Origin: Escherichia phage saus132
Reading direction: 5' to 3' (one strand)
Length of the DNA stretch: 64,000 nucleotides
Sequence record: NC_047884.1
Shown here in pieces: positions 8,425 through 43,777 of this stretch. A program made the position numbers and the translations under genes. The notes below the pieces were generated by a model. It saw only the letters and a list, made by a program, of their open reading frames with translations. It made no database searches and had not been told where the DNA came from. Position 1 is the stretch's first letter. Each line of letters opens with the position of its first letter.

Positions 8425-8459
8425 GGCAGGCAGGGCATTTTCTATTTGCCCTGCGCTTT

Positions 8460-28488: not shown

Positions 28489-28857
28489 TTATATCGCCTG
28501 AGTAAATGTACGACTAATAACGTCGTTCTGTTGTTCACGCGTCAATGCGTTAAATCGAACAGCATAGCCAGAGACACGGATGGTCAACTGAGGATATTTT
28601 TCAGGATGTTTCTGTGCATCCAAAAGCTGATCACGGCTTAACACATTGACATTTAGGTGCTGACCACCCTCGACTTGAGGAACCACTTCTACATCTACAA
28701 TGCGGAAGGCCTCAGGGTCAAAATGAGGTGTGATACCCTCTAGATCTTCAACTAGAACCTTTTGTTTAAGTTCACCATCTTTAGAATATAGCTGAATGAT
28801 CTGGTTATCATGAACAAGGTTAATTACGCCAGACTTAAGACTTTGATATGCTTTCAT
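28489..28857 (-). CDS. grcA: autonomous glycyl radical cofactor GrcA/YfiD homolog
   Basis: 122 aa; C-terminal [32 protein letters not shown] matches recalled E. coli GrcA including the RVSGY glycyl-radical motif. Confidence 0.75.
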
Positions 28858-29040
28858 TAGATCTCCCTGATGTTAGAATTTGGCTCAGCTTTTTGTTAAC
28901 CCAGAAGCAAGATAAAAACTGGGAGGCAGGCTGTTTATTAAGTGAATACCCGATAATCGCTCGTAGTCCGGCTTGTGGATTGATAGTCCCATTCAGTTTA
29001 ATAAACACAGAGATCTGGCACAAAGGCCTGATCTTATCTT

Positions 29041-29116
29041 TGGTAGTTAGTAGTGGAGTTGAACCACTGTAGTCGCTCCGTATGAAGGAGGTGCATAACC
29101 ACTCTGCCAACTAACT
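29041..29116 (-). tRNA. tRNA-Met-type (anticodon CAU; could be Met, fMet or Ile2)
   Basis: 76 nt with encoded CCA; acceptor AGTTAGT/ACTAACT; T-arm AGTGG-TTCAACT-CCACT; anticodon loop TTCATAC. Confidence 0.6.
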
Positions 29117-29122
29117 ATAATT

Positions 29123-29198
29123 TGGTACTCCGACTTGGGATCGAACCAAGATTTGACGATTATCGGTCGCCTGTTCTAACCTGTTGAACTATCAGAGC
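29123..29198 (-). tRNA. tRNA-Ile (anticodon GAU), non-canonical C33
   Basis: encoded CCA; T-arm CTTGG-TTCGATC-CCAAG; anticodon loop CCGATAA; acceptor with G-U pairs. Confidence 0.5.
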
Positions 29199-29199
29199 A

Positions 29200-29493
29200 T
29201 TACATCATTTCATCCAAGTAAGAAGTATACTGGTATTTAGCTTCCCCAGTTTTATCTACTTCGACTTCTGTTCTAGGTACTTTTCGTACCAGACCGTGAA
29301 TCATCTTGTACTGAATAGACTTAGATGGTTCGTGATCTTTTGGAAAGACTTGTTTAACCGTTACTACTTTGAAGCCTTCACGAGGTGTTAATACAACAAC
29401 TTGATCACCTTCTTTAATTTTCCAGGACTCAGGAAATTCATAAGTGTAGCGTTGACCACCAGTTTGGAACACGACAGAAAGATAACGTTTCAT
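29200..29493 (-). CDS. hypothetical protein
   Basis: 97-aa ORF; promoter leader with GAGAGGG RBS. Confidence 0.5.
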   Translation of the reverse strand: MKRYLSVVFQTGGQRYTYEFPESWKIKEGDQVVVLTPREGFKVVTVKQVFPKDHEPSKSIQYKMIHGLVRKVPRTEVEVDKTGEAKYQYTSYLDEMM

Positions 29494-29567
29494 TTGGTTT
29501 CCCTCTCATTAATTTATATAAATATTATAACAAGAAATAAGAGAGAAGGCAAATGAATTTTTAAATT

Positions 29568-29642
29568 TGGTGCTCCCACCAGGAGTCGAACCCAGTTCAG
29601 ATGCTTACAAGGCAACTGCATCGCCAGCAATGCTTTAGGAGC
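29568..29642 (-). tRNA. tRNA-Thr (anticodon UGU)
   Basis: encoded CCA; acceptor GCTCCTA/TGGGAGC; anticodon loop CTTGTAA; T-loop TTCGACT. Confidence 0.6.
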
Positions 29643-29652
29643 AATAAACCCG

Positions 29653-29817
29653 TCATTTCAACGGGATTTCTTTTTCAAATACAGGAGACTTATCAGACAT
29701 TACTGTCATCGCCAACTGCTGAAGAAACTCGAAGGATAGTGCTAGGCGTTCGTCACCAAGCTCAATCTCTACACGTTTCTTTTGTTTGTCAACCTTTAGT
29801 TTCAGGTTATCAGCCAT
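29653..29817 (-). CDS. hypothetical small protein (54 aa)
   Basis: ATG ORF between tRNA genes; below track size cutoff. Confidence 0.3.
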   Translation of the reverse strand: MADNLKLKVDKQKKRVEIELGDERLALSFEFLQQLAMTVMSDKSPVFEKEIPLK

Positions 29818-30031
29818 CTTCGGATTCTAGTTGCTCGGCTACTGCTAGCCAGTCTGGTAAAAGAAACTTAGTACGAAACTCTTCATAAGGTTCTTCTGGA
29901 TAAAAGCTAAAATTTGCTTTCTCATCATTCAAGATAACAGAGCCGTCAGTTTGTTCGTATGCTAGGTATGTTTCTCCAATAACAATAACTCGTTTATTGT
30001 TACTTTTATCACGAAACTCAAAAACGTGCAT
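29810..30031 (-). CDS. hypothetical protein
   Basis: 73-aa ORF. Confidence 0.45.
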   Translation of the reverse strand: MHVFEFRDKSNNKRVIVIGETYLAYEQTDGSVILNDEKANFSFYPEEPYEEFRTKFLLPDWLAVAEQLESEDG

Positions 30032-30048
30032 AAATGTTTCCTTAAAGT

Positions 30049-30124
30049 TGGAGCGGCTAGAGGGAATCGAACCCTACTCAGCGGGGCTTGGAAGGCCTGC
30101 GGCACAACCCGTGTGCTTAACCGC
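30049..30124 (-). tRNA. tRNA-like gene, isotype uncertain (possibly Gly UCC); weak anticodon stem
   Basis: 76 nt; good acceptor and T-arm (TTCGATT) with CCA; only a 3-bp anticodon stem around loop CTTCCAA. Confidence 0.35.
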
Positions 30125-30132
30125 TTATTGTT

Positions 30133-30210
30133 TGGCAGGGGATATTGGATTTGAACCAATGATCTCGACTTCAAAGGCCGAAGCTTTAGGCCAAGCTAAG
30201 CTAATCCCCA
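30133..30210 (-). tRNA. tRNA-Gln (anticodon UUG)
   Basis: T-arm ATTGG-TTCAAAT-CCAAT; anticodon arm TCGGC-CTTTGAA-GTCGA; CCA encoded. Confidence 0.55.
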
Positions 30211-30216
30211 ATTGTT

Positions 30217-30292
30217 TGGCTGGAATGTCTAGGATCGAACTAGAAACCTACGGTGTCAGAAACCGTCGCTCTGCCAGTTGAGCTACACTCCA
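30217..30292 (-). tRNA. tRNA-Gln (anticodon CUG)
   Basis: T-arm TCTAG-TTCGATC-CTAGA; anticodon arm ACGGT-TTCTGAC-ACCGT; D-stem GCTC/GAGC. Confidence 0.6.
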
Positions 30293-30300
30293 ATAATTTT

Positions 30301-30501
30301 TTATTCTACAGGAACCGTGGCGATTGGATCAGGCTCTTCTAGACGTTTACCATTATGATCAACACGGATAATGCCACAACCTTCACAGATTACAACAGCA
30401 CCATAGCCTTCTTTAACTTCGGCTTCTGTAATCAGACCAGAAAGATCACCAGTATCTCTTCCCCACATATCAATAGAGCATTCTTTGCAGAAATCAGCCA
30501 T
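30301..30501 (-). CDS. small Cys-containing protein
   Basis: 66-aa ORF; CKEC...CEGC. Confidence 0.45.
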   Translation of the reverse strand: MADFCKECSIDMWGRDTGDLSGLITEAEVKEGYGAVVICEGCGIIRVDHNGKRLEEPDPIATVPVE

Positions 30502-30525
30502 ATTTTATTTCCTGTTTAAGTTAAT

Positions 30526-30600
30526 TGGTGCATCCTCAGGGAATCGAACCCCGATCGTAAAGTTCGTAGCTTTACATTCTTTCCGTTGAAATAAGGACGC
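30526..30600 (-). tRNA. tRNA-Arg (anticodon ACG)
   Basis: T-loop TTCGATT; anticodon arm TAAAG-CTACGAA-CTTTA; CCA encoded. Confidence 0.55.
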
Positions 30601-30606
30601 AATATT

Positions 30607-30683
30607 TGGGGTGGCTAGTGGAATTCGAATCCACATAGGCCTGATTCACAATCAGGATCATTAACCAATTATGATATAGCCAC
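30607..30683 (-). tRNA. tRNA-His (anticodon GUG)
   Basis: perfect acceptor GTGGCTA/TAGCCAC; T-arm GTGGA-TTCGAAT-TCCAC; anticodon loop TTGTGAA; discriminator C. Confidence 0.65.
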
Positions 30684-31063
30684 AATTGAATACTATTAGG
30701 GGATGATCAGTCCTCCATTTGGCCGTCTAAGGTACCAAAGTTAGTCATTCTGCGCACAGGTTTTTCTCCTGATTCTTTCTTGCGAATGCTCTCTAGTAAT
30801 ACTCAATTGTGGCGGCTCTCCGAAACTCTTCTACTCTAGCCTTAGCAGCTTACTCCCGAACGCATGTCGGGAAAGTCTTACTAAGAACATCAAATAGCAC
30901 CGTTACACTTTGAGCCATTGAATATCAAGAAGCAGAAGGACTTGAACCTTCATGAGATAGACCATTTATCTCAGCCTCGTTTTCGGGTATCTTATGAGGA
31001 GTGGATGTTCCCCTTACGCCCTTTAGGAAGCCCCGTCTACCGATTCCGGCATACTTCAAGATT

Positions 31064-31153
31064 TGGCAGAAGATAATGGAGTCGAACCATCACCGTATCA
31101 CTACAGCGGGCCGGTTTTCAAGACCGGTTACGTACCACTACGTCCTATCTTCT
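31064..31153 (-). tRNA. tRNA-Ser (anticodon UGA), long variable arm
   Basis: 90 nt; anticodon arm CCGGT-CTTGAAA-ACCGG; about 19-nt variable arm; perfect acceptor. Confidence 0.65.
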
Positions 31154-31380
31154 AGTATTTGTTCTACTTCTTTTCGAAGATCTTCTGGATTATCATGATA
31201 GGTTGTTTGCCATACATAAATAACTCCAGCATCACATGCTTTATCAAATATTTCTCGCTCAGGAAGTTTCATGCCCATTGCGTACTTGATATGAAACTCT
31301 AAAGCTTGCTTACTAGGGAATGTATGACGCAAGAAAAACTTATCATTAGCTAAATCCAACATCATAATCTTGACTTTCAT
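31138..31380 (-). CDS. hypothetical protein
   Basis: 80-aa ORF; 3' end overlaps tRNA-Ser 5' end. Confidence 0.45.
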   Translation of the reverse strand: MKVKIMMLDLANDKFFLRHTFPSKQALEFHIKYAMGMKLPEREIFDKACDAGVIYVWQTTYHDNPEDLRKEVEQILEDRT

Positions 31381-31401
31381 TTATATTCCCTATTAGTTGT
31401 T

Positions 31402-31477
31402 TGGTGGAAGAAGAGAGATTCGAACTCTCAAGCCTGCTTTAACAAGTCAGCCACTTTCCAAGCGGTTTTCGTCACCT
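31402..31477 (-). tRNA. tRNA-like remnant (canonical 3' half, 5' half does not pair)
   Basis: CCA, acceptor 3' strand and T-arm GAGAG-TTCGAAT-CTCTC present; Asn-like loop TTGTTAA with weak stem; no complementary 5' acceptor strand. Confidence 0.3.
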
Positions 31478-31653
31478 AATCGATTTGCTCTTCCGTAGAT
31501 CTCAGGATTAAATCATAAACTTCATTAGCGGATACTGGAAGTATGAGATTATACATCTTTTGGTCATACCTCTGACCATACTCTATAAACACATACTCTT
31601 TAGTCAATGTATTAACAGCTAACCAGATATCAGTTATAGGAGTTTTCATCATG
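31476..31653 (-). CDS. hypothetical small protein (59 aa)
   Basis: ATG ORF overlapping the 5' side of the tRNA-like element. Confidence 0.3.
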
Positions 31654-31668
31654 AGTTAATCCAATGTT

Positions 31669-31749
31669 TGGTAGGGATGGAGGGACTCGAACCCACACCC
31701 GAAGACTAGAACCTAAATCTAGCGCGTCTGCCAATTTCGCCACATCCCC
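31669..31749 (-). tRNA. tRNA-Leu (anticodon UAG)
   Basis: anticodon arm CTAGA-TTTAGGT-TCTAG; 9-nt variable region; CCA encoded. Confidence 0.5.
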
Positions 31750-31756
31750 ATTTTAT

Positions 31757-31975
31757 TTAGTTAGAAATAAATAGTAACCCTGCAACAATGGAACCTATGC
31801 CACTGAATACCATTATCAGCATAGCTTCTAAGCTGATAAAGCGGACGTTATATGGAGCGCCCCAAGAATAATCAGTAAAGAAAGTTTTCTTTTCTTTAGC
31901 TAAATCTTTAATAGTTCTAAAATAGATAGCTAGTGCTAAAGCTGCAAGAACTACAGAGGCTGCTAAGAATACCAT
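31757..31975 (-). CDS. small membrane protein
   Basis: 72 aa, two TM segments. Confidence 0.45.
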   Translation of the reverse strand: MVFLAASVVLAALALAIYFRTIKDLAKEKKTFFTDYSWGAPYNVRFISLEAMLIMVFSGIGSIVAGLLFISN

Positions 31976-31994
31976 ATTATTTCCTTAATTTGTT

Positions 31995-32070
31995 TGGTGG
32001 AGTCACTCAGAATTGAACTGAGTTCCACTGCTTGCAAGGCAGTAAGTTTAACCAAATAACCTATGACCCC
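31995..32070 (-). tRNA. tRNA-Ala (anticodon UGC)
   Basis: G3-U70 wobble in acceptor (GGGGTCA/TGACTCC); anticodon arm ACTGC-CTTGCAA-GCAGT; CCA encoded. Confidence 0.65.
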
Positions 32071-32075
32071 GAATT

Positions 32076-32154
32076 TGGTGGAGAATAACGGAATCGAACC
32101 GTTCTGATGTCCTCGGTGCAAGCGAGGTGTCCACTCCATGCAGACCCATTCCCC
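32076..32154 (-). tRNA. tRNA-Ala (anticodon UGC), second divergent copy
   Basis: G3-U70 in acceptor (GGGGAAT/ATTCTCC); anticodon arm CCTCG-CTTGCAC-CGAGG; 7-nt variable loop. Confidence 0.55.
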
Positions 32155-32509
32155 AAAATCTTTAAGTTTACTAAGGCTATTAGCTCGGTGTGCGTATTAC
32201 CCTCAGACATTATCCAGTAGAGGATAACCGCTCTTCACAAACCCGATACACTATTCAGTTGCCGCTGAATCTAGTGGACTAATCTAGAACTTCTCCCGAG
32301 TCGTAGGGATCGTGCTTTTTGGCAGCCAGTCCTAGGTCGAGCTAATACCTTAGTGAACTAAATTGATGGATATCAGACTAATTTTGCTACGGCGTTTATC
32401 CTGAGGATCTCTTTTTCGGTAGCTCTGCTAGTGTAGACGTCATACACCTGATATCTAGGCAGCTATTTTCACATCAATTTATATAAATATTATAACAAGA
32501 AATTAAGCA

Positions 32510-32863
32510 TTAAGCAAGTACATTTTTAGCGATTTCTTGTAGTTCCTTAACGTCGCTAACGAAAAGGTAATCAGAGCTTCCAGAGTGCATACTCTGCATA
32601 ACCACACCACCATCCGGTGCATCTTCTTTCAAAGTAATACCTAACCAGAACTTGGCAAAACTAGGTGTTACCTCACCTTGACTTGCCTTGAACACATCGC
32701 CTTCTGTGATCTCTTGACCAGTGGAGAGTCCCATGTATGGTACGTTCAGATCAATATCTTTGTAGAACTCAGCTAGATCTTGCTCGAAATCCCAACCTTT
32801 AGAGATAGCGAACTCCATTGTTACATGACCGAAATAGCCTTGAACCTTGCTTGATAATTGCAT
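32510..32863 (-). CDS. hypothetical protein
   Basis: start moved to ATG after AAGGA RBS (track start is TTG). Confidence 0.5.
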   Translation of the reverse strand: MQLSSKVQGYFGHVTMEFAISKGWDFEQDLAEFYKDIDLNVPYMGLSTGQEITEGDVFKASQGEVTPSFAKFWLGITLKEDAPDGGVVMQSMHSGSSDYLFVSDVKELQEIAKNVLA

Positions 32864-32888
32864 TTGCAATTCCTTATTTTGAGTTAAT

Positions 32889-32962
32889 TGGTACTCGGTG
32901 ATAGAATCGAACTATCGCAACCGCCGTGTAAAGACGGGGTTCTCCCATTAAACTAACCGAGC
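32889..32962 (-). tRNA. tRNA-Val (anticodon UAC)
   Basis: T-arm GATAG-TTCGATT-CTATC; anticodon loop TTTACAC. Confidence 0.55.
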
Positions 32963-33095
32963 AAAAGACGTCCTATAATATAGGCTTCAACTACAAATTC
33001 ACAGAAACCTGCTAAAAACATACCTATTGTAAAATCGGCAGAGAATACATAGGAATCTTTTATTTTCTGCTTCATTAAGTAAAACCAGATAGTCA

Positions 33096-33413
33096 TTAAA
33101 ATCTCTCCATTCTAAAGCCAATGAAGTAAGGTGCATTACATGGAACATGCTTAAGATCTTTAAGAGTAATTTTACGTCCTAAGCGTCGTTCCATACAAGT
33201 GAAACATAGAACAATATCTTTGGGCTGCTCTTTTCTTATCTGATCCCAGACCCAATCTTCAACCATACACATTTCATGGTATTGTTCACAGTCTCGACAA
33301 TAGTGACACTGATGTTCTGGTACTTTTTGATTTTTAATACACAGTTCAGTAAAGCGTTTTCCGGCTCTGCCAGACATTTCTGATATTGTTTCTAGAACTT
33401 TGTTAATATTCAT
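33096..33413 (-). CDS. Cys-rich zinc-finger-like protein
   Basis: 105 aa; HQCHYCRDCEQYHEMC and CFTC motifs. Confidence 0.5.
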   Translation of the reverse strand: MNINKVLETISEMSGRAGKRFTELCIKNQKVPEHQCHYCRDCEQYHEMCMVEDWVWDQIRKEQPKDIVLCFTCMERRLGRKITLKDLKHVPCNAPYFIGFRMERF

Positions 33414-33430
33414 AACAAATTCCTTTAAAT

Positions 33431-33509
33431 TGGTAGACCGCCTGGGACTCGAACCCAGAACCTTCCGGTTAAAAGCCGGGTGCTGCTAAACCAATTGAGC
33501 TAGCGATCT
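33431..33509 (-). tRNA. tRNA-Lys (anticodon UUU)
   Basis: T-arm CTGGG-TTCGAGT-CCCAG; anticodon loop CTTTTAA. Confidence 0.55.
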
Positions 33510-33511
33510 AT

Positions 33512-33676
33512 TTAGTACATATATACTTCTTTAATAGAGTAGACTTTTAAGTAAGGATGATTAATACCAAATTCCGCCATCACTTCGTTTTCATCTTTAC
33601 CGTAATGGGCTAGTGGATACTTCTTACGATCTTTGCTAGAACGTAGATCACTTACTTTTAAGCGAAATAATTTCAT
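33512..33676 (-). CDS. hypothetical small protein (54 aa)
   Basis: ATG ORF between two tRNA genes. Confidence 0.3.
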   Translation of the reverse strand: MKLFRLKVSDLRSSKDRKKYPLAHYGKDENEVMAEFGINHPYLKVYSIKEVYMY

Positions 33677-33697
33677 TTCGAAATCCTTCTATTAAAT

Positions 33698-33775
33698 TGG
33701 AAGCGGGTGTAGGAATCGAACCTACCTCTTTCTAGCTTATGAGACTAGCGATCTCTACCAGAGATCTAACCCGCA
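33698..33775 (-). tRNA. tRNA-Met-type (anticodon CAU), mismatched 1-72 pair
   Basis: anticodon arm CTAGT-CTCATAA-GCTAG; T-loop TTCGATT; U1/U72 mismatch. Confidence 0.55.
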
Positions 33776-33781
33776 ATTGTT

Positions 33782-33859
33782 TGGTCTCCGTGGGAGGATT
33801 TGAACCCCCGACCCTACCGCCCCAAACGGAACGCTCTGGCCAAACTGAGCTACACGGAG
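33782..33859 (-). tRNA. tRNA-Pro (anticodon UGG)
   Basis: perfect acceptor CTCCGTG/CACGGAG; anticodon loop TTTGGGG; D-stem GCTC/GAGC. Confidence 0.6.
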
Positions 33860-34336
33860 AATATTATCTTTTTAACCATAGTAAGGTTATACCTAACATG
33901 GTAAATCCAGTACCCAGCCCAATACTTTTTTCTATGAAATTGAAGGTATCAGTATTGACTGCGGTAATTAGTATAGGTATAGACCATAGTACCATGAATA
34001 CTTGAGCTATCTTATATTTCACTTTGCTTTCCTTCTTAACATTTTATAAGATATATTATACAGAGAATTAAGCAAAGTAGCAAATGAATTTTTAATAAAT
34101 TTACTTATTGCGTAGGCCACCTGGAGGGTTCAAGCCCCACGGCTGACAAAGAAGTTTGCGAGACTTCTCTTAAACGCCAGAATAGACCCGCCGATCTATC
34201 GGAACCTACTCAATAAGTAAACTTTCATTTACTTACACCTACCTGGTCGGGAGGATTTTCAGCGACTAGAACCGGCCGGAAACTCATCGCCTTGTTTATC
34301 TAGGAGTCCGTTCTCTAGGAAGCAGAAACCTAAATT

Positions 34337-34410
34337 TGGTGCGGTCGGAGGGAATCGAACCCTCAACTTCTGGTTGGCAACCAAAAATTATACCTTTTAA
34401 CTACGAACGC
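34337..34410 (-). tRNA. tRNA-Gly (anticodon GCC)
   Basis: T-arm GAGGG-TTCGATT-CCCTC; anticodon arm TTTGG-TTGCCAA-CCAGA. Confidence 0.6.
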
Positions 34411-34608
34411 ATAATAAGTCAATCTAGGCAGGACTTGAACCTGCTATCACTTGTGCGGATTTACGAGAACCATTCTTTCACTCGAATCGAACGAGCTTCT
34501 ACCCTCGGCAAGCTGGTGTCCCCTCTCCACCACGCTAGAATGTTTGATAAAGAGTCCGGTGTAGCAATCCGTAAGGGTGCACCTACTGTAGCCTTTACTC
34601 TTTAAATT

Positions 34609-34684
34609 TGGTACACCCACTAGGACTTGAACCTAGAACCCTCCGCTTAAGAGGCGGTAGCTCTAACCATTGAGCTATGGATGT
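34609..34684 (-). tRNA. tRNA-Lys (anticodon CUU)
   Basis: T-arm CTAGG-TTCAAGT-CCTAG; anticodon loop CTCTTAA; D-stem GCTC/GAGC. Confidence 0.55.
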
Positions 34685-34690
34685 ATTATT

Positions 34691-34767
34691 TGGCGCGACC
34701 GATGGGATTCGAACCCACATTCTCTCCCGTGACAGGGGAGTACCATTACCAAGCCAGCCCCGATCGC
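34691..34767 (-). tRNA. tRNA-Asp (anticodon GUC)
   Basis: anticodon arm CTCCC-CTGTCAC-GGGAG; discriminator G; CCA encoded. Confidence 0.6.
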
Positions 34768-34776
34768 ATAATTTGT

Positions 34777-34962
34777 TTACTCAGCTTTGAGTTTTTCGAT
34801 AGCTTCCTCAACCTCTTTTAGAGCTTCACGACGTGCATTCTGTTGCTGCATATCTTGAATTAATGTCAGTTTTTGGTTTTCAATTTCTTGATCCCAAACC
34901 TTAATATTATTAATCAGACTATCACGATCAGCTTCTAGTCGAGCAATTGCACGAGTTGTCAT
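34777..34962 (-). CDS. hypothetical coiled-coil protein
   Basis: 61-aa ORF. Confidence 0.4.
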   Translation of the reverse strand: MTTRAIARLEADRDSLINNIKVWDQEIENQKLTLIQDMQQQNARREALKEVEEAIEKLKAE

Positions 34963-35065
34963 ATCTATTTCCTCAGTTGTTAATGAAAAATGGTATCTGT
35001 GACTGAATTCGATATCAGCAATGATAGCTGGTTGGCTACCGGTTTACTTAACTCTACACAGAATT

Positions 35066-35143
35066 TGGCGGTTCCTGCTGGATTCGAACCAGCAACCCTC
35101 AACTTAACAAGATGCCGCTCTAACCAATTAGAGCTAAGGAACC
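35066..35143 (-). tRNA. tRNA-Asn (anticodon GUU), weak anticodon stem
   Basis: perfect acceptor GGTTCCT/AGGAACC; T-arm GCTGG-TTCGAAT-CCAGC; loop TTGTTAA; two stem mismatches. Confidence 0.5.
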
Positions 35144-35638
35144 ATATAAGTCAGAACTAGAGTTAATACGTTCTAGATATTTACTAAGATCCCTAGAATT
35201 TATACTAAACCACTCATGTTCTTTTAAGTCTTTGAAATATTGGTGAATTTGTTTTTCACCTTTTCGTTTGTCAAACCAAAACGACCAATGCTCTAGTTTA
35301 TAGTCCCTATAAGGACTATAAGTTTGATACTGAGCTAATCTCTCTTTTGGATTTTGACTCATACCTATTTTATACTGGTTTTTCCATGCAGGATTACTGA
35401 TACAGTATACAAAACCTTCAGAAATAGGAAGCTTATTTTCCTGTTTAAACTTTATAAAGGAAAGTGCGGCAAGTTTCCTCGAATACAGAGTATTTGTATT
35501 CTTTTTGGTATTACCACTGGTTCCTGAAAGATTTATATACTCTTCCATAAATCTTTGGATTAGTTCTGTGGTTATGTAGAAAGGCTCATTAGTAACAATG
35601 CCTTTCTCTACCAAGCTGTCAAAAACTTTTGTATGCAC
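35120..35638 (-). CDS. T5orf172/GIY-YIG-like domain protein
   Basis: 172 aa; GFVYCISNP...YKIGMSQNPKERLAQY resembles the T5orf172 core. Confidence 0.5.
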   Translation of the reverse strand: MHTKVFDSLVEKGIVTNEPFYITTELIQRFMEEYINLSGTSGNTKKNTNTLYSRKLAALSFIKFKQENKLPISEGFVYCISNPAWKNQYKIGMSQNPKERLAQYQTYSPYRDYKLEHWSFWFDKRKGEKQIHQYFKDLKEHEWFSINSRDLSKYLERINSSSDLYGSLALIG

Positions 35639-35659
35639 TACTTCTTTCCTTTAGTAATT

Positions 35660-35734
35660 TGGAGCATCCTGTTGGAATTGAACCAACCTAGACGATTTTG
35701 CAGACCGTCACCTAAGCCACTCGGACAAGGATGC
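35660..35734 (-). tRNA. tRNA-Cys (anticodon GCA)
   Basis: perfect acceptor GCATCCT/AGGATGC; anticodon loop CTGCAAA; T-loop TTCAATT. Confidence 0.65.
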
Positions 35735-35737
35735 AAA

Positions 35738-36010
35738 TTAATCTACTTCACACATATCATCATAGCCACAAGTTGGGCATTCCCAATGACATTCGTCATG
35801 CTCACCGCATTGAGCACATTCATAAATCTTTGGCTTTTCAACTTCTTCTAGATTAATAAATTCTAGATCATCGAAGTTACCAATGGATCTGGCATAGTAA
35901 CCATCGCCTGCGTCATAACCTGATTTACCACACTCACACATCTTAAACTCACGCAGATGTGTGAAGATATGTTCAGAGCCACAACACTTAAATTTAACTA
36001 ACTTTTTCAT
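35738..36010 (-). CDS. zinc-ribbon protein
   Basis: 90 aa; several CxxC pairs. Confidence 0.5.
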   Translation of the reverse strand: MKKLVKFKCCGSEHIFTHLREFKMCECGKSGYDAGDGYYARSIGNFDDLEFINLEEVEKPKIYECAQCGEHDECHWECPTCGYDDMCEVD

Positions 36011-36059
36011 TTGCTTCTCCAGTTCAATTTATGTAATAATTATACAGAACTTTAAGCGG

Positions 36060-36347
36060 TTAAGCAACTACATTTTTCAGAAATATGATGCCTTTCTTTT
36101 TCTTCTTATACTTCCACGTTAACGGGTTCTGTCGATTATGAACGCTTGAGATCTTTGTCTCGTCAAAGTTCTTCAATACCATGTAATCACAGGCCAACTG
36201 TTCTAGTGGAATGTGATCTCCGTCAAAAGCGTAAACGTAAGGCTGTTGACTGGCACGATAATGATAGACTTTGTTAATTCTGCGTTTCAGTGACTTATCC
36301 GCACAGTAAATAAAGAAGTTTTCAGGATGCATCAGCATCTCCTTCAA
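36060..36347 (-). CDS. hypothetical protein
   Basis: 95-aa ORF; track start is TTG, a likelier ATG lies 9 nt in. Confidence 0.45.
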   Translation of the reverse strand: MKEMLMHPENFFIYCADKSLKRRINKVYHYRASQQPYVYAFDGDHIPLEQLACDYMVLKNFDETKISSVHNRQNPLTWKYKKKKKGIIFLKNVVA

Positions 36348-36349
36348 AT

Positions 36350-36424
36350 TGGTGCACCCTGTTCGAATTGAACGAACCTCTCAAGCTCTTCAGGCAAGCG
36401 CTAATCCATCTCAGCTAAAGGTGC
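36350..36424 (-). tRNA. tRNA-Phe (anticodon GAA), anticodon stem with two U-U mismatches
   Basis: T-arm GTTCG-TTCAATT-CGAAC; loop CTGAAGA; CCA encoded. Confidence 0.45.
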
Positions 36425-36430
36425 AAATAT

Positions 36431-36507
36431 TGGCAAACCTACTAGGACTCGAACCTAGACCGTACGGTTTTGGAGACCGACATGCTGTCCAGTAACACTC
36501 TAGGAAT
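36431..36507 (-). tRNA. tRNA-Trp (anticodon CCA)
   Basis: T-arm CTAGG-TTCGAGT-CCTAG; anticodon arm TCGGT-CTCCAAA-ACCGT; two U-U mismatches in acceptor. Confidence 0.5.
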
Positions 36508-36515
36508 GCAGAAAT

Positions 36516-36592
36516 TGGCGTCCTGTGCGGGGATCGAACCCGCAAATCCTACCTTGAAAGGGTAGTGACTTTACCAGTTTGTCTAACAGGAC
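36516..36592 (-). tRNA. tRNA-Glu (anticodon UUC)
   Basis: perfect acceptor; T-arm GCGGG-TTCGATC-CCCGC; anticodon arm CTACC-CTTTCAA-GGTAG. Confidence 0.65.
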
Positions 36593-36599
36593 TTAAATT

Positions 36600-36690
36600 T
36601 GGTGTTGGATGATGGAGTCGAACCACCCGAGACCCTTCCGAGTCGGCAGATTTACAGTCTACTTCGCTACCTCTACGATACTAATCCAAC
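36600..36690 (-). tRNA. tRNA-Tyr (anticodon GUA), long variable arm
   Basis: 91 nt; perfect acceptor GTTGGAT/ATCCAAC; anticodon loop CTGTAAA; about 18-nt variable arm. Confidence 0.6.
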
Positions 36691-36879
36691 ATATTTGAAT
36701 GAAAAGTAAGTCGGTTAAACTCAAGGTGGAATATTTCAGGATTTCCTGACTTTACCCCTAAAAGCAACTCGCTTAATTACTTCTCATTCAGATATGTTTC
36801 CAAATTAGATAAATATTATATCAAGTTTTAAGGCACTGAGCAAGTCAAATTTTAAAGAACTTGCTCAGTGCTGTATCAG

Positions 36880-37173
36880 TTAATCAAATGAAGGAGTGAC
36901 TTTCAAAGTGAATGGAAGTTCGAATACCTCTTCACCTTCATCAGTAACAGTGACTACTCGACCCTCTAGCTTATTCATGCTGATTTCAACATCAGCCGTA
37001 GCATCAGGAGCCATACCAGCCTCAATACATTGAGCTTTGATCTCTGGAAGAAGTTCTACATTGTAGAAATAAAGCCACTCGATCTCACCTTCCCAACCAC
37101 CCCAGGATTTACATACTGAGCTTTCAATACCAGTTGCTGCAAAACGTTTTAACATTCTGATTCCTCTCATCAA
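36880..37173 (-). CDS. hypothetical protein
   Basis: 97-aa ORF. Confidence 0.45.
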   Translation of the reverse strand: MMRGIRMLKRFAATGIESSVCKSWGGWEGEIEWLYFYNVELLPEIKAQCIEAGMAPDATADVEISMNKLEGRVVTVTDEGEEVFELPFTLKVTPSFD

Positions 37174-37244
37174 CTTATATAACTATTATAGCAGAAATCT
37201 TAAGCAAAAAGCAAGTACATTTTTAAAATTTCTGCTTGGAGGAG

Positions 37245-37517
37245 TTAAACTCCTGATTCTTCAGCCAGATCAAGCCCAACCAATGTGATTGCCATAATAG
37301 CCGCGCCATGTTCTTTCTCTCCTAGCTCTTTGGCTTGAGTGAGAATATTGAGGAATTGCTTTTGAAAATCTGCAACTTCTTCTGTCATGCCTGCTTCAGC
37401 AATAATTCCTTTCAGCATAAAGCGTTGTGCCGTAATTTCAGGATTAGCCATTTGTTTTCTCCAGTTATTTAGAATGTAAGCCAAACTTAGGATCATAGCG
37501 ATCGTAAGTAGTACCAT
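37245..37517 (-). CDS. hypothetical protein
   Basis: 90-aa ORF. Confidence 0.45.
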   Translation of the reverse strand: MVLLTIAMILSLAYILNNWRKQMANPEITAQRFMLKGIIAEAGMTEEVADFQKQFLNILTQAKELGEKEHGAAIMAITLVGLDLAEESGV

Positions 37518-37602
37518 TAGTTGAAGCCTTGATGCTATGAAAACGACAATACATAAATTTACGCAGTGCTTTCTTAATAGCTTTCATTTTATTTCCTTAA
37601 TT

Positions 37603-37679
37603 TGGTAGGGGTGGTGGGATTCGAACCCACAAAACCTGAATTTTAAGTCCAGTACCTATGCCAATTCGATTACACCCCC
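37603..37679 (-). tRNA. tRNA-Leu (anticodon UAA), short variable loop
   Basis: T-arm GTGGG-TTCGAAT-CCCAC; anticodon loop CTTAAAA; 77 nt. Confidence 0.45.
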
Positions 37680-37687
37680 ATGTAATC

Positions 37688-38041
37688 TTAGCGAATCTCT
37701 AAACCCTGGAAATATCGAGGGAATGGAGAGCCAACTTCAAAATTGATGCCCCAGTTAAGTTCAACGAGTTCAGATTTATTAAGATCTAGGCCATTACCTT
37801 CAAAGATATAGCCGTAAACCGCAGGGAACATAGCTGCTAGATCTTCCATATCGGAATGAGCATTGTGTTCTTCACGTAACTGCTCAAACTCTTCAAAGAA
37901 CTTTTCTAGGAAGAACTCAGGTACGATGAACGTTACCACATCAGTAGAATCATCAGTACGATACACCGTAGCTTGGAACAAGCCAACACCTAAAAGGTTT
38001 ATTGCCGGAGTAGTAAAAATATCCATCTTAACCTCGCTCAA
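37688..38041 (-). CDS. hypothetical protein
   Basis: 117-aa ORF. Confidence 0.5.
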   Translation of the reverse strand: MSEVKMDIFTTPAINLLGVGLFQATVYRTDDSTDVVTFIVPEFFLEKFFEEFEQLREEHNAHSDMEDLAAMFPAVYGYIFEGNGLDLNKSELVELNWGINFEVGSPFPRYFQGLEIR

Positions 38042-38213
38042 TGTCTAGAGAAATACCACATTCAGGATTAATACCAGAACCATTACAATATGTACAAACG
38101 TATGTATTATACCGTGTATCACCGGGTTCAGCATCGTTCCACTCACCTACTCCGAAGCATTTTGGGCAGGCACACTCTTCTAGCTCTTGCTTGAGTTCTT
38201 GAAATTTGGACAT
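38028..38213 (-). CDS. small zinc-finger protein
   Basis: 61 aa; CPKCFGVGEW and CTYCNGSG motifs. Confidence 0.4.
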   Translation of the reverse strand: MSKFQELKQELEECACPKCFGVGEWNDAEPGDTRYNTYVCTYCNGSGINPECGISLDIERG

Positions 38214-38221
38214 ATAGTCTC

Positions 38222-38410
38222 CTAGTTAATTACTTTTGAGGCTTCTAAAGCATTGACGTAGTAAACGTCTTCTACTTTATACATATAGTCTACTACTTTG
38301 TCCATAGCATGTAGTTCAGATGTAGCCTTTACTAGTCTGTACCCTTGTTTAAACTCGTCCGAATGTTCTCTATCTTGTGCAAATTTAACAGAAACTATGA
38401 ATAATTCCAT
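38222..38410 (-). CDS. hypothetical small protein
   Basis: 62-aa ORF. Confidence 0.4.
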   Translation of the reverse strand: MELFIVSVKFAQDREHSDEFKQGYRLVKATSELHAMDKVVDYMYKVEDVYYVNALEASKVIN

Positions 38411-38429
38411 TAGTTGTCCTTATTTAATT

Positions 38430-38507
38430 TGGTGGCTCCCGGAGGATTCGAACCTACCTACCTTTCGCTTATGAGGCGACGGCTCATACCAAATGAGCTT
38501 GAGAACC
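38430..38507 (-). tRNA. tRNA-Met-type (anticodon CAU), third CAU copy
   Basis: T-loop TTCGAAT; anticodon arm GTCGC-CTCATAA-GCGAA; CCA encoded. Confidence 0.5.
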
Positions 38508-38512
38508 AAATT

Positions 38513-38606
38513 TGGAGGAAGATGCCAGATTCGAACTGGCACACCGTGTCTCCACAGCTACTGGCTGTTTAGCAAACAGCTCCCTTACCTTTAGGGTTAA
38601 TCTTCC
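38513..38606 (-). tRNA. tRNA-Ser (anticodon GCU), long variable arm
   Basis: 94 nt; perfect acceptor GGAAGAT/ATCTTCC; anticodon arm GCTGT-TTGCTAA-ACAGC. Confidence 0.6.
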
Positions 38607-38626
38607 AAATTTATGAATATATTATA

Positions 38627-42881: not shown

Positions 42882-43777
42882 TTTAGGTATTTTTAAGAAC
42901 TCTTATAAAAGCTCTTAAAGATACCCGACGGTAGGTAGGGTCAGCCCCCTCAGATTAAGCTCTGCAGCCCTTCCGTCAGACAATATCTTCCAGTTTAAGT
43001 CAGGGTGACTTTGTGGTTATGTTCTCCGTATGTGAAGAACTCGGTTAGGCTTAGGTCATGACTCCCAGCCTACTGCTGCCGCTCAACAGGAATTATCGCG
43101 AATTACCTGTACTATTGGGCACCATTAGTGACATCTCTCATGTCAGCGTTTCCCACTCTCATATTCACGCGGTCTGTTAGAATCGCACCTCCGATTTTCG
43201 ATGCGAAGCTGGATGCCTAGTCTCAGGTTAAACGGGGCACACACTAGGCAGTGATCCCGAGTTCCGAGTTTGGTTGAGGCCGTCAGGTTTCCTCGTGGTT
43301 TAGCTGTTTCGATTCTAACCTAATACTGATCAGGTGGCGTACCTCCTGAACTGTCATAGTATGTACTCCAGCAGCGAATGCTTATCCGGTATAAGCCCGA
43401 GTTATCTGATTCTTTCCGACCGCAGGATTCGAACCTGCATCTTCCACCAGTTACGGTTTGATATTACCGTTTATACTAGGACGGCAGTGTTATCACATAA
43501 GTCAGTTCGACACCCCACTAACATAAACTAGAGAAGAGTTTACGAGATTTCGGGACAGCTCCCGAGTTTTCCGCAGATTTTCAGTTCCCTATCAATAGCA
43601 ATAAGCGTTAGCTCGTAGCCTCTCTCAGAGTACTTACTAGTCTCCAACTCACCGACTCTATTCAGTGGAATAGCTATCCTAGTAGGAATCACTAAACTCA
43701 CTCAGCGTAATCGGCTCGCTGTTCTCTAATTTATGAATCTATTATACAGAATTTTGAGGCGTTTAGCAAATCAATTT

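What the first reader, a model, noticed from the sequence alone, without database searches (positions are those of the whole stretch)
29041..38606. tRNA genes with non-canonical anticodon stem-loops
About 28 tRNA genes cover all 20 amino acids, including three CAU species. Several have unusual anticodon arms: Ile(GAU) has C33; Phe, Asn and the Gly-like gene have U-U or other mismatches next to the loop; Leu(UAA) has a short variable loop. Published work on T5-like phages links such changes to escape from host anticodon nucleases, so this set may act as a counter-defence.
Basis: partly seen in the sequence, partly recalled or inferred. Interest (0 to 1): 0.6.

Follow-up and report, generated by a model that had tools for sequence, protein, structure and literature searches.

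The report
T5-like phage tRNA gene array
This is the already catalogued tRNA-rich region of a T5-like coliphage: about 30 tRNA genes, a third with genuinely odd anticodon arms, including a rare C in place of the near-universal U33 in tRNA-Ile, which most likely keep phage translation going when host defence nucleases cut host tRNAs.

Summary
The window is the first 64 kb of GenBank MF431736.1, T5-like phage chee130_1 (Epseptimavirus). The tRNA array is real. There are 29 tRNA genes on the minus strand in 29041-38606, plus Arg(UCU) at 42807 and a tRNA-like remnant at 43413. They cover all 20 amino acids and include three CAU species.

ARAGORN and the Rfam covariance model agree on the unusual features. 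Ile(GAU) has C32-C33. Phe has two U·U pairs and G37. Asn has G·A and U·U pairs. Leu(UAA) is 77 nt with a 5-nt variable loop. The mismatches lie inside the stems, not next to the loop, and Gly(GCC) is canonical.

Nine of 28 window tRNAs have true anticodon-stem mismatches, against 0 of 33 sampled E. coli tRNAs. The mismatches persist across T5-like genera while neighbouring pairs covary.

Counter-defence is already published for T5. Its tRNA-Lys, Thr and Asn neutralise PARIS, and the window's Asn is identical to T5's. Supply of A-ending codons also fits the data.

One detail I did not find in the literature searched: C33 in tRNA-Ile(GAU) is conserved, covaries with an intact cloverleaf, and recurs in unrelated phages. 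Published work shows that U33C blocks t6A37 formation by the E. coli enzymes.

The parts
29041..29116 (-). tRNA-Met(CAU), elongator type; C27·C43 mismatch
   Evidence: ARAGORN; Rfam 49.5 bits. 98% identical outside the anticodon arm to the T5 gene annotated tRNAM.
29123..29198 (-). tRNA-Ile(GAU) with anticodon loop C32-C33-GAU-A-A (C33 in place of U33)
   Evidence: ARAGORN; Infernal alignment (57 bits). C33 is conserved in 11 distinct phage sequences with compensatory stem changes. About 207 phage records hold this allele type.
29568..29642 (-). tRNA-Thr(UGU); U28·U42 mismatch; G39 where the host has U39
   Evidence: The anticodon arm is identical to that of T5 tRNA-Thr, which was tested against PARIS (PMC12409363).
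30049..30124 (-). Gly(UCC)-like tRNA of the T5 Gly1 type, with an irregular anticodon stem and D arm
   Evidence: Annotated in GenBank. ARAGORN finds it only at 90% threshold. It differs from T5 Gly1 by two U-to-C changes, each turning an A-U pair into A·C. The T5 copy is annotated as an effective suppressor.
30133..30210 (-). tRNA-Gln(UUG)
   Evidence: 100% identical to the T5 allele.
30217..30292 (-). tRNA-Gln(CUG)
   Evidence: The allele differs from those of T5, SPC35 and EPS7.
30526..30600 (-). tRNA-Arg(ACG); A-U-rich anticodon stem; loop the same as the host's
30607..30683 (-). tRNA-His(GUG)
   Evidence: Identical to T5, SPC35 and EPS7.
31064..31153 (-). tRNA-Ser(UGA), class II
   Evidence: Rfam 32.1 bits.
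31402..31494 (-). Ser(GGA)-like tRNA (T5 Ser2 type) with a weak D arm
   Evidence: Annotated in GenBank. ARAGORN finds it only at 90% threshold. Fold.
31669..31749 (-). tRNA-Leu(UAG), 81 nt, variable arm cut down to 8 nt
   Evidence: E. coli leuW is 85 nt.
31995..32070 (-). tRNA-Ala(UGC), with G3·U70
32076..32154 (-). Second tRNA-Ala(UGC), 79 nt, with G3·U70
   Evidence: Found by ARAGORN; below the Rfam tRNA gathering score. The same gene is conserved in SPC35, EPS7, Pectobacterium and Proteus phages.
32889..32962 (-). tRNA-Val(UAC)
33431..33509 (-). tRNA-Lys(UUU); C27·A43; positions 36-41 read UAACCG (host UAAUCA)
   Evidence: The allele differs from T5's. The anticodon stem is the fastest-changing part among relatives.
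33698..33775 (-). fMet-like tRNA(CAU): U1·U72 and A11-U24, but no G-C triplet in the anticodon stem; G39
   Evidence: The T5 homologue is annotated as the initiator. A near-identical sequence is listed as mutated at the VapC site.
33782..33859 (-). tRNA-Pro(UGG); U28·U42; G37 and G38
   Evidence: EPS7 keeps the U·U while the 29-41 pair covaries.
34337..34410 (-). tRNA-Gly(GCC), canonical anticodon arm
34609..34684 (-). tRNA-Lys(CUU); A27·A43. E. coli K-12 has no tRNA with this anticodon.
   Evidence: That E. coli K-12 lacks it is established knowledge; only part of the genome was sampled here.
34691..34767 (-). tRNA-Asp(GUC)
35066..35143 (-). tRNA-Asn(GUU); G27·A43 and U30·U40; G39
   Evidence: 100% identical to T5 tRNA-Asn, which helps suppress PARIS (PMC12409363).
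35660..35734 (-). tRNA-Cys(GCA)
36350..36424 (-). tRNA-Phe(GAA); U28·U42 and U29·U41; G37
   Evidence: Identical to T5's; EPS7 carries a canonical allele instead.
36431..36507 (-). tRNA-Trp(CCA); U27·U43
   Evidence: The 27-43 mismatch is retained in the Klebsiella, Pectobacterium and Proteus phages.
36516..36592 (-). tRNA-Glu(UUC)
36600..36690 (-). tRNA-Tyr(GUA), class II; anticodon arm close to the host's
   Evidence: Rfam 29.4 bits; comparison.
37603..37679 (-). tRNA-Leu(UAA), 77 nt, class-I shape (5-nt variable loop) with a Leu-type D arm, U48 and A73
   Evidence: The same 77-nt form occurs in EPS7 and in the Klebsiella, Pectobacterium and Proteus phages. E. coli leuZ is 87 nt.
38430..38507 (-). 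Ile2-type tRNA(CAU); G27·A43
   Evidence: The T5 homologue is annotated tRNAI2(CAU). All four inner stem pairs differ from T5's in a compensatory way.
38513..38606 (-). tRNA-Ser(GCU), class II
   Evidence: The best sigma-70-like site of the region (11 of 12 matches) lies just upstream at 38649-38621.
43413..43486 (-). tRNA-like remnant ('Ser(ACU)'), no CCA end, inside the homologue of T5 stable RNAX
   Evidence: Rfam 29.3 bits; ARAGORN only at 90% threshold; blastn to T5 RNAX.
30810..31060 (-). Homologues of T5 stable RNAs RNAI and RNA1 (tRNA-like); not annotated in the record
   Evidence: blastn, 91% and 81% identity; T5 annotation.
34109..34542 (-). Homologues of T5 RNAIV (34109-34209) and RNA2 (tRNA-like, 34418-34542). 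The span also contains tRNA-Gly(GCC), 34337-34410, listed separately.
   Evidence: blastn, 94% and 90% identity.
34991..35063 (-). Homologue of T5 RNA3 (putative tRNA-like RNA), directly 3' of tRNA-Asn
   Evidence: blastn, 97% identity.

Best explanation
This is the tRNA-rich region of a T5-like phage. About 30 minus-strand tRNA genes are interleaved with small ORFs and T5-type stable RNAs. Each gene encodes its own CCA end.

Together they give the phage its own adaptor for every amino acid. The most likely main role is insurance against host tRNA-targeting defences such as PARIS AriB, VapC, retron-Eco7 PtuAB, PrrC, HepS and Schlafen-type nucleases.

Two mechanisms are proposed:
- **Escape by sequence.** Substitutions and maintained mismatches in the anticodon stem-loop remove what a nuclease reads. 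Examples are the loss of U39 in Lys, Thr and Asn, G39 in the fMet-like tRNA, U·U pairs at 28-42 or 30-40, and C33 in Ile.
- **Supply.** The phage simply replenishes the tRNA pool during infection.

A second, compatible benefit is supply of tRNAs for A-ending codons, which this AT-rich phage uses more than its host.

Shown here: the sequences, their differences from host tRNAs, and their conservation and covariation across phages. Inferred: resistance to cleavage, expression, charging, and the role of C33.
For: - The window equals MF431736.1, an Epseptimavirus, and its tRNA order is syntenic with T5.
- tRNA-Asn is 100% identical to T5's, and the Thr anticodon arm is identical to T5's. T5 Lys, Thr and Asn together suppress PARIS, and AriB cuts after position 40 of tRNAs carrying U36-A-A-U39.
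- Window Lys, Thr and Asn read UAACCG, UAAGCA and UAAGUU. E. coli has UAAUCA, UAAUCA and UAAUCC.
- The fMet-like tRNA has G39 at the VapC 38|39 site, and a near-identical sequence is listed as 'mutated in the cleavage site'.
- 9 of 28 window tRNAs have true anticodon-stem mismatches, against 0 of 33 in E. coli.
- The mismatches persist while neighbouring pairs covary. Thr keeps U28·U42 in six phages, Pro keeps U28·U42, and the 27-43 mismatches of Lys and Trp are retained.
- Among orthologous T5-like tRNAs, the anticodon stem has 10.1% substitutions against 4.1% in the other stems.
- Within one genus, whole alleles are swapped at Ile, Lys(UUU), Asn, Phe, Gln, Cys and Gly.
- T5 phages with tRNA-region deletions are viable but become sensitive to PARIS or retron-Eco7.
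- C33 Ile is conserved with an intact cloverleaf: 99.6% of cells are paired and 16 of 21 pairs show changes on both sides.
Against: - There are no cleavage, expression or charging data for this phage.
- Its Lys(UUU) allele is not the T5 allele that was tested.
- The anticodon loops of Lys(UUU), Tyr, Asp and Arg(ACG) are the same as the host's at the PrrC, colicin E5 and colicin D cut sites.
- E. coli tRNA-Tyr under the phage promoter also rescues from retron-Eco7, so escape by sequence is not always needed.
- The authors of the bacterial Schlafen study report indications that RorSlfn5 may cut phage tRNA-Ala more efficiently than the host tRNA, so divergence can backfire.
- All ten U34 tRNAs in 4- and 6-codon boxes match A-ending codons enriched in the phage. 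Codon supply alone could therefore explain which anticodons are present.
- The faster-evolving anticodon stem could reflect weaker constraint rather than an arms race, and the pairwise comparisons are not phylogenetically independent.
Confidence: 0.65

Rival explanations
1. Codon supply only. The array exists to decode codons that an AT-rich phage uses much more than its host does, and the odd anticodon arms are incidental.
For: - Window G+C is 39.4%.
- All ten U34 tRNAs in 4- and 6-codon boxes read A-ending codons enriched in phage ORFs relative to E. coli. Log2 RSCU ratios: AGA +2.5, CUA +2.3, GGA +1.6, UUA +1.4, GUA +1.3, ACA +1.2, CCA +1.1, GCA +0.9, CAA +0.9, UCA +0.15.
- Lys(CUU) adds an anticodon that E. 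coli K-12 lacks (established knowledge).
Against: - Over all codons the test is not significant (p=0.17).
- The set also covers Trp, Met, Phe, Asp, His and Tyr, where there is no choice of tRNA or no codon bias.
- Codon supply does not explain conserved mismatches, C33, the loss of U39 in exactly the three AriB targets, or allele swapping.
- T5 phages lacking 16 of 23 tRNAs grow on laboratory hosts and fail only when PARIS is present.
Confidence: 0.2
2. Relaxed selection. Many of the odd genes are drifting or decaying copies, and the mismatches are damage, not design.
For: - The Gly(UCC)-like gene differs from the functional T5 gene by two helix-weakening U-to-C changes.
- The Gly-like and Ser(GGA) genes fail default ARAGORN and the Rfam cut-off.
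- A tRNA-like remnant lies at 43413.
- T5 annotates its Gln(CUG) gene as a pseudogene, and many T5 tRNAs did not become amber suppressors.
Against: - The same mismatches are kept across genera while adjacent pairs covary.
- C33 Ile keeps a perfect cloverleaf in 11 divergent sequences.
- All genes keep an encoded CCA end.
- T5 Asn and Thr, with these very arms, are biologically active against PARIS.
- Failure to become a suppressor is expected where the anticodon is an identity element (established knowledge).
Confidence: 0.07
3. Self-protection or decoy. The divergent arms protect phage tRNAs from the phage's own host-shutoff nucleases. Alternatively, some of these RNAs act as competitive inhibitors of nucleases and not as adaptors.
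For: - The AriB study raises the possibility that overexpressed viral tRNAs compete with host tRNAs for AriB.
- The array also holds tRNA-like stable RNAs of unknown function.
- C33 should block t6A37 formation, and t6A37 is a strong IleRS determinant. A poor adaptor would fit a decoy role.
Against: - No phage tRNA nuclease was identified in the window.
- The small Toprim protein next to the array is DnaG-like, with nothing linking it to RNA cleavage.
- The full identity sets seen for Leu (A73, A14, A15-U48, G18G19) and for both Ala genes (G3·U70) argue for real adaptors.
Confidence: 0.08

Closest known systems
Phage T5 tRNA gene region (NC_005859, T5t01-T5t25 plus stable RNAs)
   Same: - Same position, strand and gene order.
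- Many alleles are identical or nearly so: Asn, Phe, Gln(UUG) and His 100%; Met, fMet and Arg(UCU) 98%.
- Homologues of T5 RNAI, RNA1, RNA2H, RNAIV, RNA2, RNA3 and RNAX are present.
   Different: - The window has extra genes: Arg(ACG), Gly(GCC), Lys(CUU), Leu(UAA) and a second Ala.
- It has no homing-endonuclease genes in the array.
- It carries different alleles for Ile (C33 type), Lys(UUU), Cys, Tyr, Gln(CUG) and Leu(UAG).
T5 tRNA-Lys(UUU), Thr(UGU) and Asn(GUU) as suppressors of PARIS/AriB (PMC11464382, PMC12409363)
   Same: - Asn is identical and the Thr anticodon arm is identical to T5's.
- All three window tRNAs lack U39 of the AriB motif.
   Different: - The window's Lys(UUU) has C39-C40-G41 where T5 has A39-C40-C41. 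The U39-to-C change has not been tested.
- The authors also found that recognition involves positions outside the anticodon arm.
T5/SP15 tRNA-Tyr against retron-Eco7 PtuAB (PMC11555353)
   Same: A tRNA-Tyr gene sits in the same cluster, Phe-Trp-Glu-Tyr.
   Different: - The window's Tyr allele is the EPS7 type, with an anticodon arm almost the same as the host's.
- Published rescue depended on a strong promoter and also worked with the E. coli tRNA.
Anticodon-loop changes in phage tRNAs (van den Berg et al., eLife 2023)
   Same: - Same logic: phage tRNAs differ from host tRNAs at nuclease cut sites.
- The T5-type fMet-like tRNA is in their table.
   Different: - Their enterobacterial table has no tRNA-Ile entry and no position-33 case.
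- Most departures here are in the stem, not in the loop.
C33 in initiator tRNA-Met of multicellular eukaryotes (PMC8887486)
   Same: A natural tRNA that decodes an ANN codon and has C33 in place of U33.
   Different: - Here it is an elongator tRNA-Ile(GAU) of bacteriophages.
- In E. coli the t6A enzymes TsaBCDE did not modify a U33C tRNA.
Class-I-shaped tRNA-Leu of animal mitochondria
   Same: A tRNA-Leu without the long variable arm.
   Different: - Phage-encoded, and used with a bacterial LeuRS.
- It keeps the bacterial Leu-type D arm, U48 and A73.
- A review states that all organisms except animal mitochondria keep the long arm.

Membership tests
Bacterial-type tRNA (Rfam RF00005) | Cloverleaf that scores at or above the covariance model's gathering score | tested here: met
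   26 of the 29 genes in range pass, as does Arg(UCU). Ala-2, the Gly(UCC)-like gene and Ser(GGA) do not.
Bacterial-type tRNA (Rfam RF00005) | 7-nt anticodon loop with U33 | tested here: not met
   The status refers to Ile(GAU) only, which has C33. All other called genes in the window have U33.
Bacterial-type tRNA (Rfam RF00005) | Fully paired 5-bp anticodon stem (Watson-Crick or G·U) | tested here: not met
   9 of 28 genes have at least one true mismatch. The covariance model flags the same pairs in Asn and Phe.
T5-like (Demerecviridae) tRNA-rich region | Sequence identity and synteny with T5-like genomes | tested here: met
   100% identical to MF431736.1. 670 related phage records match the region. 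Gene order matches T5, SPC35 and EPS7.
T5-like (Demerecviridae) tRNA-rich region | T5-type stable or tRNA-like RNAs between the tRNA genes | tested here: met
   blastn homologues of seven of the eight T5 stable RNAs queried; RNAIII gave no match.
Nuclease-escape phage tRNAs (PARIS/AriB paradigm) | Same anticodon as a host tRNA that a defence nuclease cuts | tested here: met
   Lys(UUU), Thr(UGU) and Asn(GUU) are present. The targets are defined in PMC12409363.
Nuclease-escape phage tRNAs (PARIS/AriB paradigm) | Substitution at the recognition or cleavage site (U39; positions 40|41) | tested here: met
   The window has C39 (Lys) and G39 (Thr, Asn), where E. coli has U39 in all three.
Nuclease-escape phage tRNAs (PARIS/AriB paradigm) | Resistance to cleavage and rescue of infection | not testable with these tools
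   Known only for the T5 homologues. Asn is identical, and the Thr anticodon arm is identical.
Class II tRNA-Leu | Long variable arm | tested here: not met
   Leu(UAA) has a 5-nt variable loop and is 77 nt. Leu(UAG) has 8 nt and is 81 nt. The E. coli genes are 87 and 85 nt.
E. coli leucine identity set | A73, A14, A15-U48, G18G19 and A20a in a 3-bp D stem with an 11-nt D loop | tested here: met
   Read directly from the sequences. The determinants are as listed in PMC9976931. Charging itself was not tested.
Bacterial initiator tRNA | 1-72 mismatch and A11-U24 | tested here: met
   33698-33775 has U1·U72 and A11-U24 (sequence). That these features define initiators is established knowledge.
Bacterial initiator tRNA | Three consecutive G-C pairs at 29-41, 30-40 and 31-39 | tested here: not met
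   The stem reads C-G, U-A, A-U, G-C, U·G.

The most novel reading that the evidence does not exclude
U33-to-C33 in phage tRNA-Ile(GAU), and sporadically in other phage tRNAs such as Lys(UUU), Asn and Thr, is a recurrent adaptive change and not noise.

By removing the uridine of the U-turn, it would hide the tRNA from host enzymes that read that uridine. These include anticodon-loop nucleases that cut at or next to U33. It would also prevent t6A37 formation by TsaBCDE, producing a deliberately under-modified tRNA-Ile that still decodes.

Published findings that bear on this:
- CdiA-CT EC536 cuts tRNA-Ile(GAU) between C32 and U33.
- The Schlafen-type nuclease CbCash recognises the U-turn.
- HepS of the Salmonella prophage Gifsy-1 targets tRNA-Ile(GAU).

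A parallel unreported feature is the class-I-shaped tRNA-Leu kept across Demerecviridae.
Probability: 0.3. Interest if true: 0.65.

Novelty: already known. Interest (0 to 1): 0.3.

Why it matters
The array is a textbook feature of T5-like phages, and its counter-defence role has been published since 2023-2024. The finding as stated therefore adds little.

What could matter are two details that I did not find in the papers searched.

**C33 in tRNA-Ile(GAU).**
- A near-universal tRNA nucleotide, U33, is replaced by C in a conserved, covarying phage tRNA-Ile lineage.
- The lineage is found in Epseptimavirus, Sugarlandvirus, Myunavirus, a Brevundimonas jumbo phage and many uncultured viral contigs.
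- Published work shows that U33C stops t6A37 synthesis by the E. coli enzymes.
- This gives a concrete, testable link between phage tRNA sequence, host tRNA modification and nuclease escape.

**tRNA-Leu without the long variable arm.**
- It is kept across the family.
- It runs against the statement that only animal mitochondria have lost the arm.

Both are cheap to test. Both bear on the choice or engineering of therapeutic T5-like phages for hosts that carry tRNA-targeting defences.

Tried and rejected
1. **Bacterial control for C33.** I scanned 185,579 species genomes for GGCGACNGATAATCGTC. It shows only that this arm is not a common bacterial tRNA arm. It says nothing about C33 against U33 in bacteria.

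2. **C33 as a property of ANN-decoding (t6A) tRNAs in general.** This was not significant. The counts were 5 against 4 in the first sample (p=0.16) and 13 of 505 against 9 of 791 in an independent sample of 1,296 viral tRNAs (p=0.075). Only Ile(GAU) stands out, at 3 of 34 against 19 of 1,262 (p=0.018).

3. **Host-like anticodon arms.** With N at position 33, Lys gave 0 C of 50, Tyr 0 of 87 and Thr 3 of 57.

4. **Codon-usage test over all codons.** Not significant (p=0.17). Only the U34 subset is consistent.

5. **Promoter and terminator scan.** Counts were not above shuffled expectation. One strong site lies upstream of Ser(GCU).

6. **Small Toprim protein next to the array.** I considered it as a possible RNase M5-like or AriB-like enzyme. 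It matches DnaG-type Toprim models only and has no PDB sequence hit. I dropped it.

7. **Weak Rfam hits.** Hits to tRNA-Sec and Plastid-ycf2 are cross-matches of tRNAs, the latter on the antisense strand.

8. **Enrichment of the C33 allele in Salmonella phages.** The counts are 134 of 297 against 27 of 179 for Escherichia phages. This is confounded by phylogeny, and the denominators come from a different search.

9. **Paper not held.** The RemAIN paper (PMC11840918) could not be read.

Full report
**Identity of the sequence.** The stretch 29000-38700 is 100% identical, at the same coordinates, to GenBank MF431736.1, 'Bacteriophage T5-like chee130_1' (Demerecviridae, Epseptimavirus). Another 670 phage records match the region, mostly Salmonella, Escherichia and Klebsiella phages. 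The source paper reports growth on E. coli K-12, EPEC, EIEC and Shigella sonnei but not on the Salmonella strains tested, and it mentions only '20 tRNA genes' (PMC5816814). E. coli K-12 is therefore the right host reference.

**Checking the observation: gene count.**
- ARAGORN at default settings minus-strand tRNA genes in 29041-38606, plus Arg(UCU) at 42807.
- Rfam RF00005 passes its gathering score for 26 of these and for Arg(UCU), and gives a borderline hit at 43414-43485.
- Lowering ARAGORN to 90% of its threshold adds exactly three genes: Gly(UCC) 30049-30124, Ser(GGA) 31402-31491 and the element at 43413.
- The first two are annotated as tRNAs in the record.
- All 20 amino acids are covered, and three genes have a CAU anticodon. 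Their T5 homologues are annotated Met, fMet and Ile2.
- Every ARAGORN-called gene encodes its CCA end.

**Checking the observation: anticodon arms.**
- Ile(GAU) has the loop CCGAUAA. Both ARAGORN and the Infernal alignment place C at the consensus U33 position.
- The covariance model flags pairs 27-43 and 30-40 in Asn, and 28-42 and 29-41 in Phe, as non-standard.
The mismatches are inside the stems, and the loop-closing pair is Watson-Crick.
Gly(GCC) at 34337 is canonical.
- Leu(UAA) is 77 nt with a 5-nt variable loop, and Leu(UAG) is 81 nt. The E. coli genes are 87 and 85 nt.

**Is it more than chance?** I fetched E. coli K-12 genes for 25 of the 27 anticodons; Lys(CUU) and, as it turned out, Phe(GAA) have no host counterpart in the sample. 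I also fetched the tRNA regions of T5, SPC35, EPS7, Klebsiella phage VAC51, Pectobacterium phage DU_PP_V and Proteus phage PL1, and ran ARAGORN on all of them.
- 9 of 28 window tRNAs have at least one mismatch in the anticodon stem that is neither Watson-Crick nor G·U.
- The figure is 0 of 33 for distinct E. coli tRNAs (Fisher p=4e-4).
- Across the seven phages it is 58 of 174.

The mismatches are maintained, not random.
- Thr keeps U28·U42 in six phages, and the Proteus phage changes the adjacent 29-41 pair from U-A to C-G.
- Pro keeps U28·U42 while 29-41 changes from C-G to U-A between the window and EPS7.
- Lys(UUU), Lys(CUU) and Trp keep a 27-43 mismatch across genera.

**How the array evolves.**
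- Among orthologous pairs (at least 80% identical outside the anticodon arm), the anticodon stem carries 10.1% substitutions against 4.1% in the acceptor, D and T stems. The odds ratio is 2.6 and p=3e-7, but the pairs are not phylogenetically independent.
- The Ile2-type tRNA differs from T5's at all four inner stem pairs, in a compensatory way, while the rest of the molecule is nearly unchanged.
- Between the window and EPS7, which belong to the same genus, whole alleles are exchanged at Ile, Lys(UUU), Phe, Asn, both Gln, Cys and Gly(UCC).

**What is already known.**
- van den Berg et al. proposed that phage tRNAs escape anticodon nucleases (PMC10264068). Their supplement lists a T5-type fMet-like tRNA, near-identical to 33698-33775, as mutated at the VapC 38|39 site.
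- PARIS AriB cuts E. coli tRNA-Lys(UUU) between positions 40 and 41. T5 tRNA-Lys is resistant. T5 phages with deletions in the tRNA region are viable but PARIS-sensitive (PMC11464382).
- AriB also cuts Thr(UGU) and Asn(GUU), which share U36-A-A-U39. A U39A change abolishes cleavage. The three T5 tRNAs together suppress PARIS (PMC12409363).
- The window's Asn is identical to T5's, and its Thr anticodon arm is identical to T5's. Its Lys, Thr and Asn all lack U39.
- T5/SP15 tRNA-Tyr rescues infection from retron-Eco7. That rescue depended on a strong promoter, and E. coli tRNA-Tyr worked too (PMC11555353).
- The authors of a bacterial Schlafen study suggest the enzyme may cut phage tRNA-Ala more efficiently than host tRNA-Ala.

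**The codon-supply rival.**
- I compared 66 window ORFs with 25 E. coli ORFs. All ten U34 tRNAs in 4- and 6-codon boxes read A-ending codons enriched in the phage.
- Examples, as log2 RSCU ratios: AGA +2.5, CUA +2.3, GGA +1.6, UUA +1.4.
- The test over all codons is not significant (p=0.17).
- Codon supply probably contributes, but it does not explain the anticodon-arm anatomy.

**C33 in tRNA-Ile(GAU): distribution.**
- T5, SPC35 and EPS7 carry a different Ile allele, with U33, at the same locus.
- The C33 allele type is found in about 207 phage records.
- C33 is also present in Klebsiella phage VAC51 (Sugarlandvirus), E. coli phage 26175III, Pectobacterium phage My1 (Myunavirus) and the Brevundimonas jumbo phage Kikimora.
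- A close relative in Klebsiella phage FKP3 has U33.
- A scan of IMG/VR for GGCGACNGATAATCGTC found 29 tRNA-like hits on many different backbones, 17 with C and 12 with U.

**C33 in tRNA-Ile(GAU): selection.**
- Eleven distinct C33 sequences keep the cloverleaf. 99.6% of cells are paired, 16 of 21 pairs show changes on both sides, and 0 of 500 shuffles reach the observed values.
- In an independent sample of 1,296 unique viral tRNAs, C33 occurs in 3 of 34 Ile(GAU) genes against 19 of 1,262 others (p=0.018).
- C33 also appears in EPS7 Lys(UUU). One 168-kb viral contig has it in Lys, Asn, two Thr genes and Glu.
- An association with ANN-decoding tRNAs in general is not significant.

**C33: literature that bears on it.**
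- U33C abolishes t6A37 formation by E. coli TsaBCDE (PMC8887486).
- t6A37 is a strong determinant for bacterial IleRS (PMC9976931).
- CdiA-CT EC536 cuts tRNA-Ile(GAU) between C32 and U33.
- The Gifsy-1 HepS nuclease of Salmonella targets Ile(GAU) among others.
- A CRISPR-associated Schlafen recognises the U-turn.
- I found no paper describing C33 in phage tRNA-Ile.
- The functional reading is an inference.

**Class-I-shaped tRNA-Leu.**
- The 77-nt Leu(UAA) occurs in the window, EPS7, and the Klebsiella, Pectobacterium and Proteus phages. 77-nt Leu(UAG) genes occur in SPC35 and in the Pectobacterium and Proteus phages.
- All keep a 3-bp D stem, an 11-nt D loop with A14, A15, G18, G19 and A20a, plus U48 and A73. 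These are the E. coli LeuRS determinants, and that enzyme does not need the long arm (PMC9976931).
- The same review says that Leu and Ser tRNAs keep long arms everywhere except in animal mitochondria. A literature search found no description of the phage form.

**Surroundings.**
- The unannotated gaps in the array hold homologues of T5's stable and tRNA-like RNAs.
- The small ORFs belong to PHROG families of unknown function.
- A DnaG-type Toprim-only protein, a YqeY-like protein and a GrcA-like glycyl-radical protein flank the array.

**Verdict.**
- The kind of system is already known.
- C33 in tRNA-Ile and the short-armed tRNA-Leu are the only parts with some novelty, and both need experiments.

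Noticed in passing
window 30810-31060, 32235-32347, 34109-34209, 34418-34542, 34991-35063, 42882-43540 (minus strand): Homologues of T5's annotated stable RNAs (RNAI, RNA1, RNA2H, RNAIV, RNA2, RNA3, RNAX) fill the gaps between tRNA genes. They are 80-97% identical to T5. Some are tRNA-like, and their function is unknown. None is annotated in MF431736.1.
   Followed up: partly
window 38627-39028 (minus strand): A 133-aa protein made only of a DnaG-type Toprim domain lies directly upstream of the tRNA array. It is conserved beside the tRNA genes in T5 (T5.076), SPC35 and Proteus phage PL1. It has no sequence match in the PDB, and nothing links it to RNA cleavage.
   Followed up: partly
window 33698-33775 (minus strand): The tRNA whose T5 homologue is annotated as the initiator has the 1-72 mismatch and A11-U24. 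It lacks the three G-C pairs of the anticodon stem that bacterial initiators have. Whether it can initiate translation is unclear.
   Followed up: partly
window tRNA array compared with L007 (EPS7) and L002 (T5): tRNA alleles are mosaic. Relative to EPS7, a phage of the same genus, the window has whole-allele replacements at Ile, Lys(UUU), Phe, Asn, both Gln, Cys and Gly(UCC). Several of the window's alleles are the T5 (Tequintavirus) ones.
   Followed up: partly
L036 (IMGVR_UViG_3300037461_000469), about 4192-9309: An uncultured 168-kb viral contig with 35 tRNA genes has C33 in Lys(UUU), Asn(GUU), Thr(UGU), Thr(GGU), Glu(CUC) and Ile(GAU). It also carries a second Lys(UUU) whose anticodon arm equals the E. 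coli one.
   Followed up: partly
L237 (IMG/VR locus): This locus has a tRNA-Asn with the T5-type anticodon arm (gcatc/gttga, including the U30·U40 mismatch) but with C32-C33 in place of U32-U33.
   Followed up: no
window 43778-44221 and 28489-28857 (minus strand): Two proteins flank the array. One is a YqeY-like 147-aa protein labelled 'tRNA amidotransferase'; it scores below the Pfam cut-off but matches PHROG 1460. The other is a GrcA/YfiD-like glycyl-radical protein, mislabelled 'pyruvate formate-lyase' in the record.
   Followed up: no
window 39617-41351 (minus strand): PnuC-like transporter and NadR-like genes (NAD salvage) lie between the main array and tRNA-Arg(UCU), as in EPS7. I took this from the record's annotation only.
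   Followed up: no
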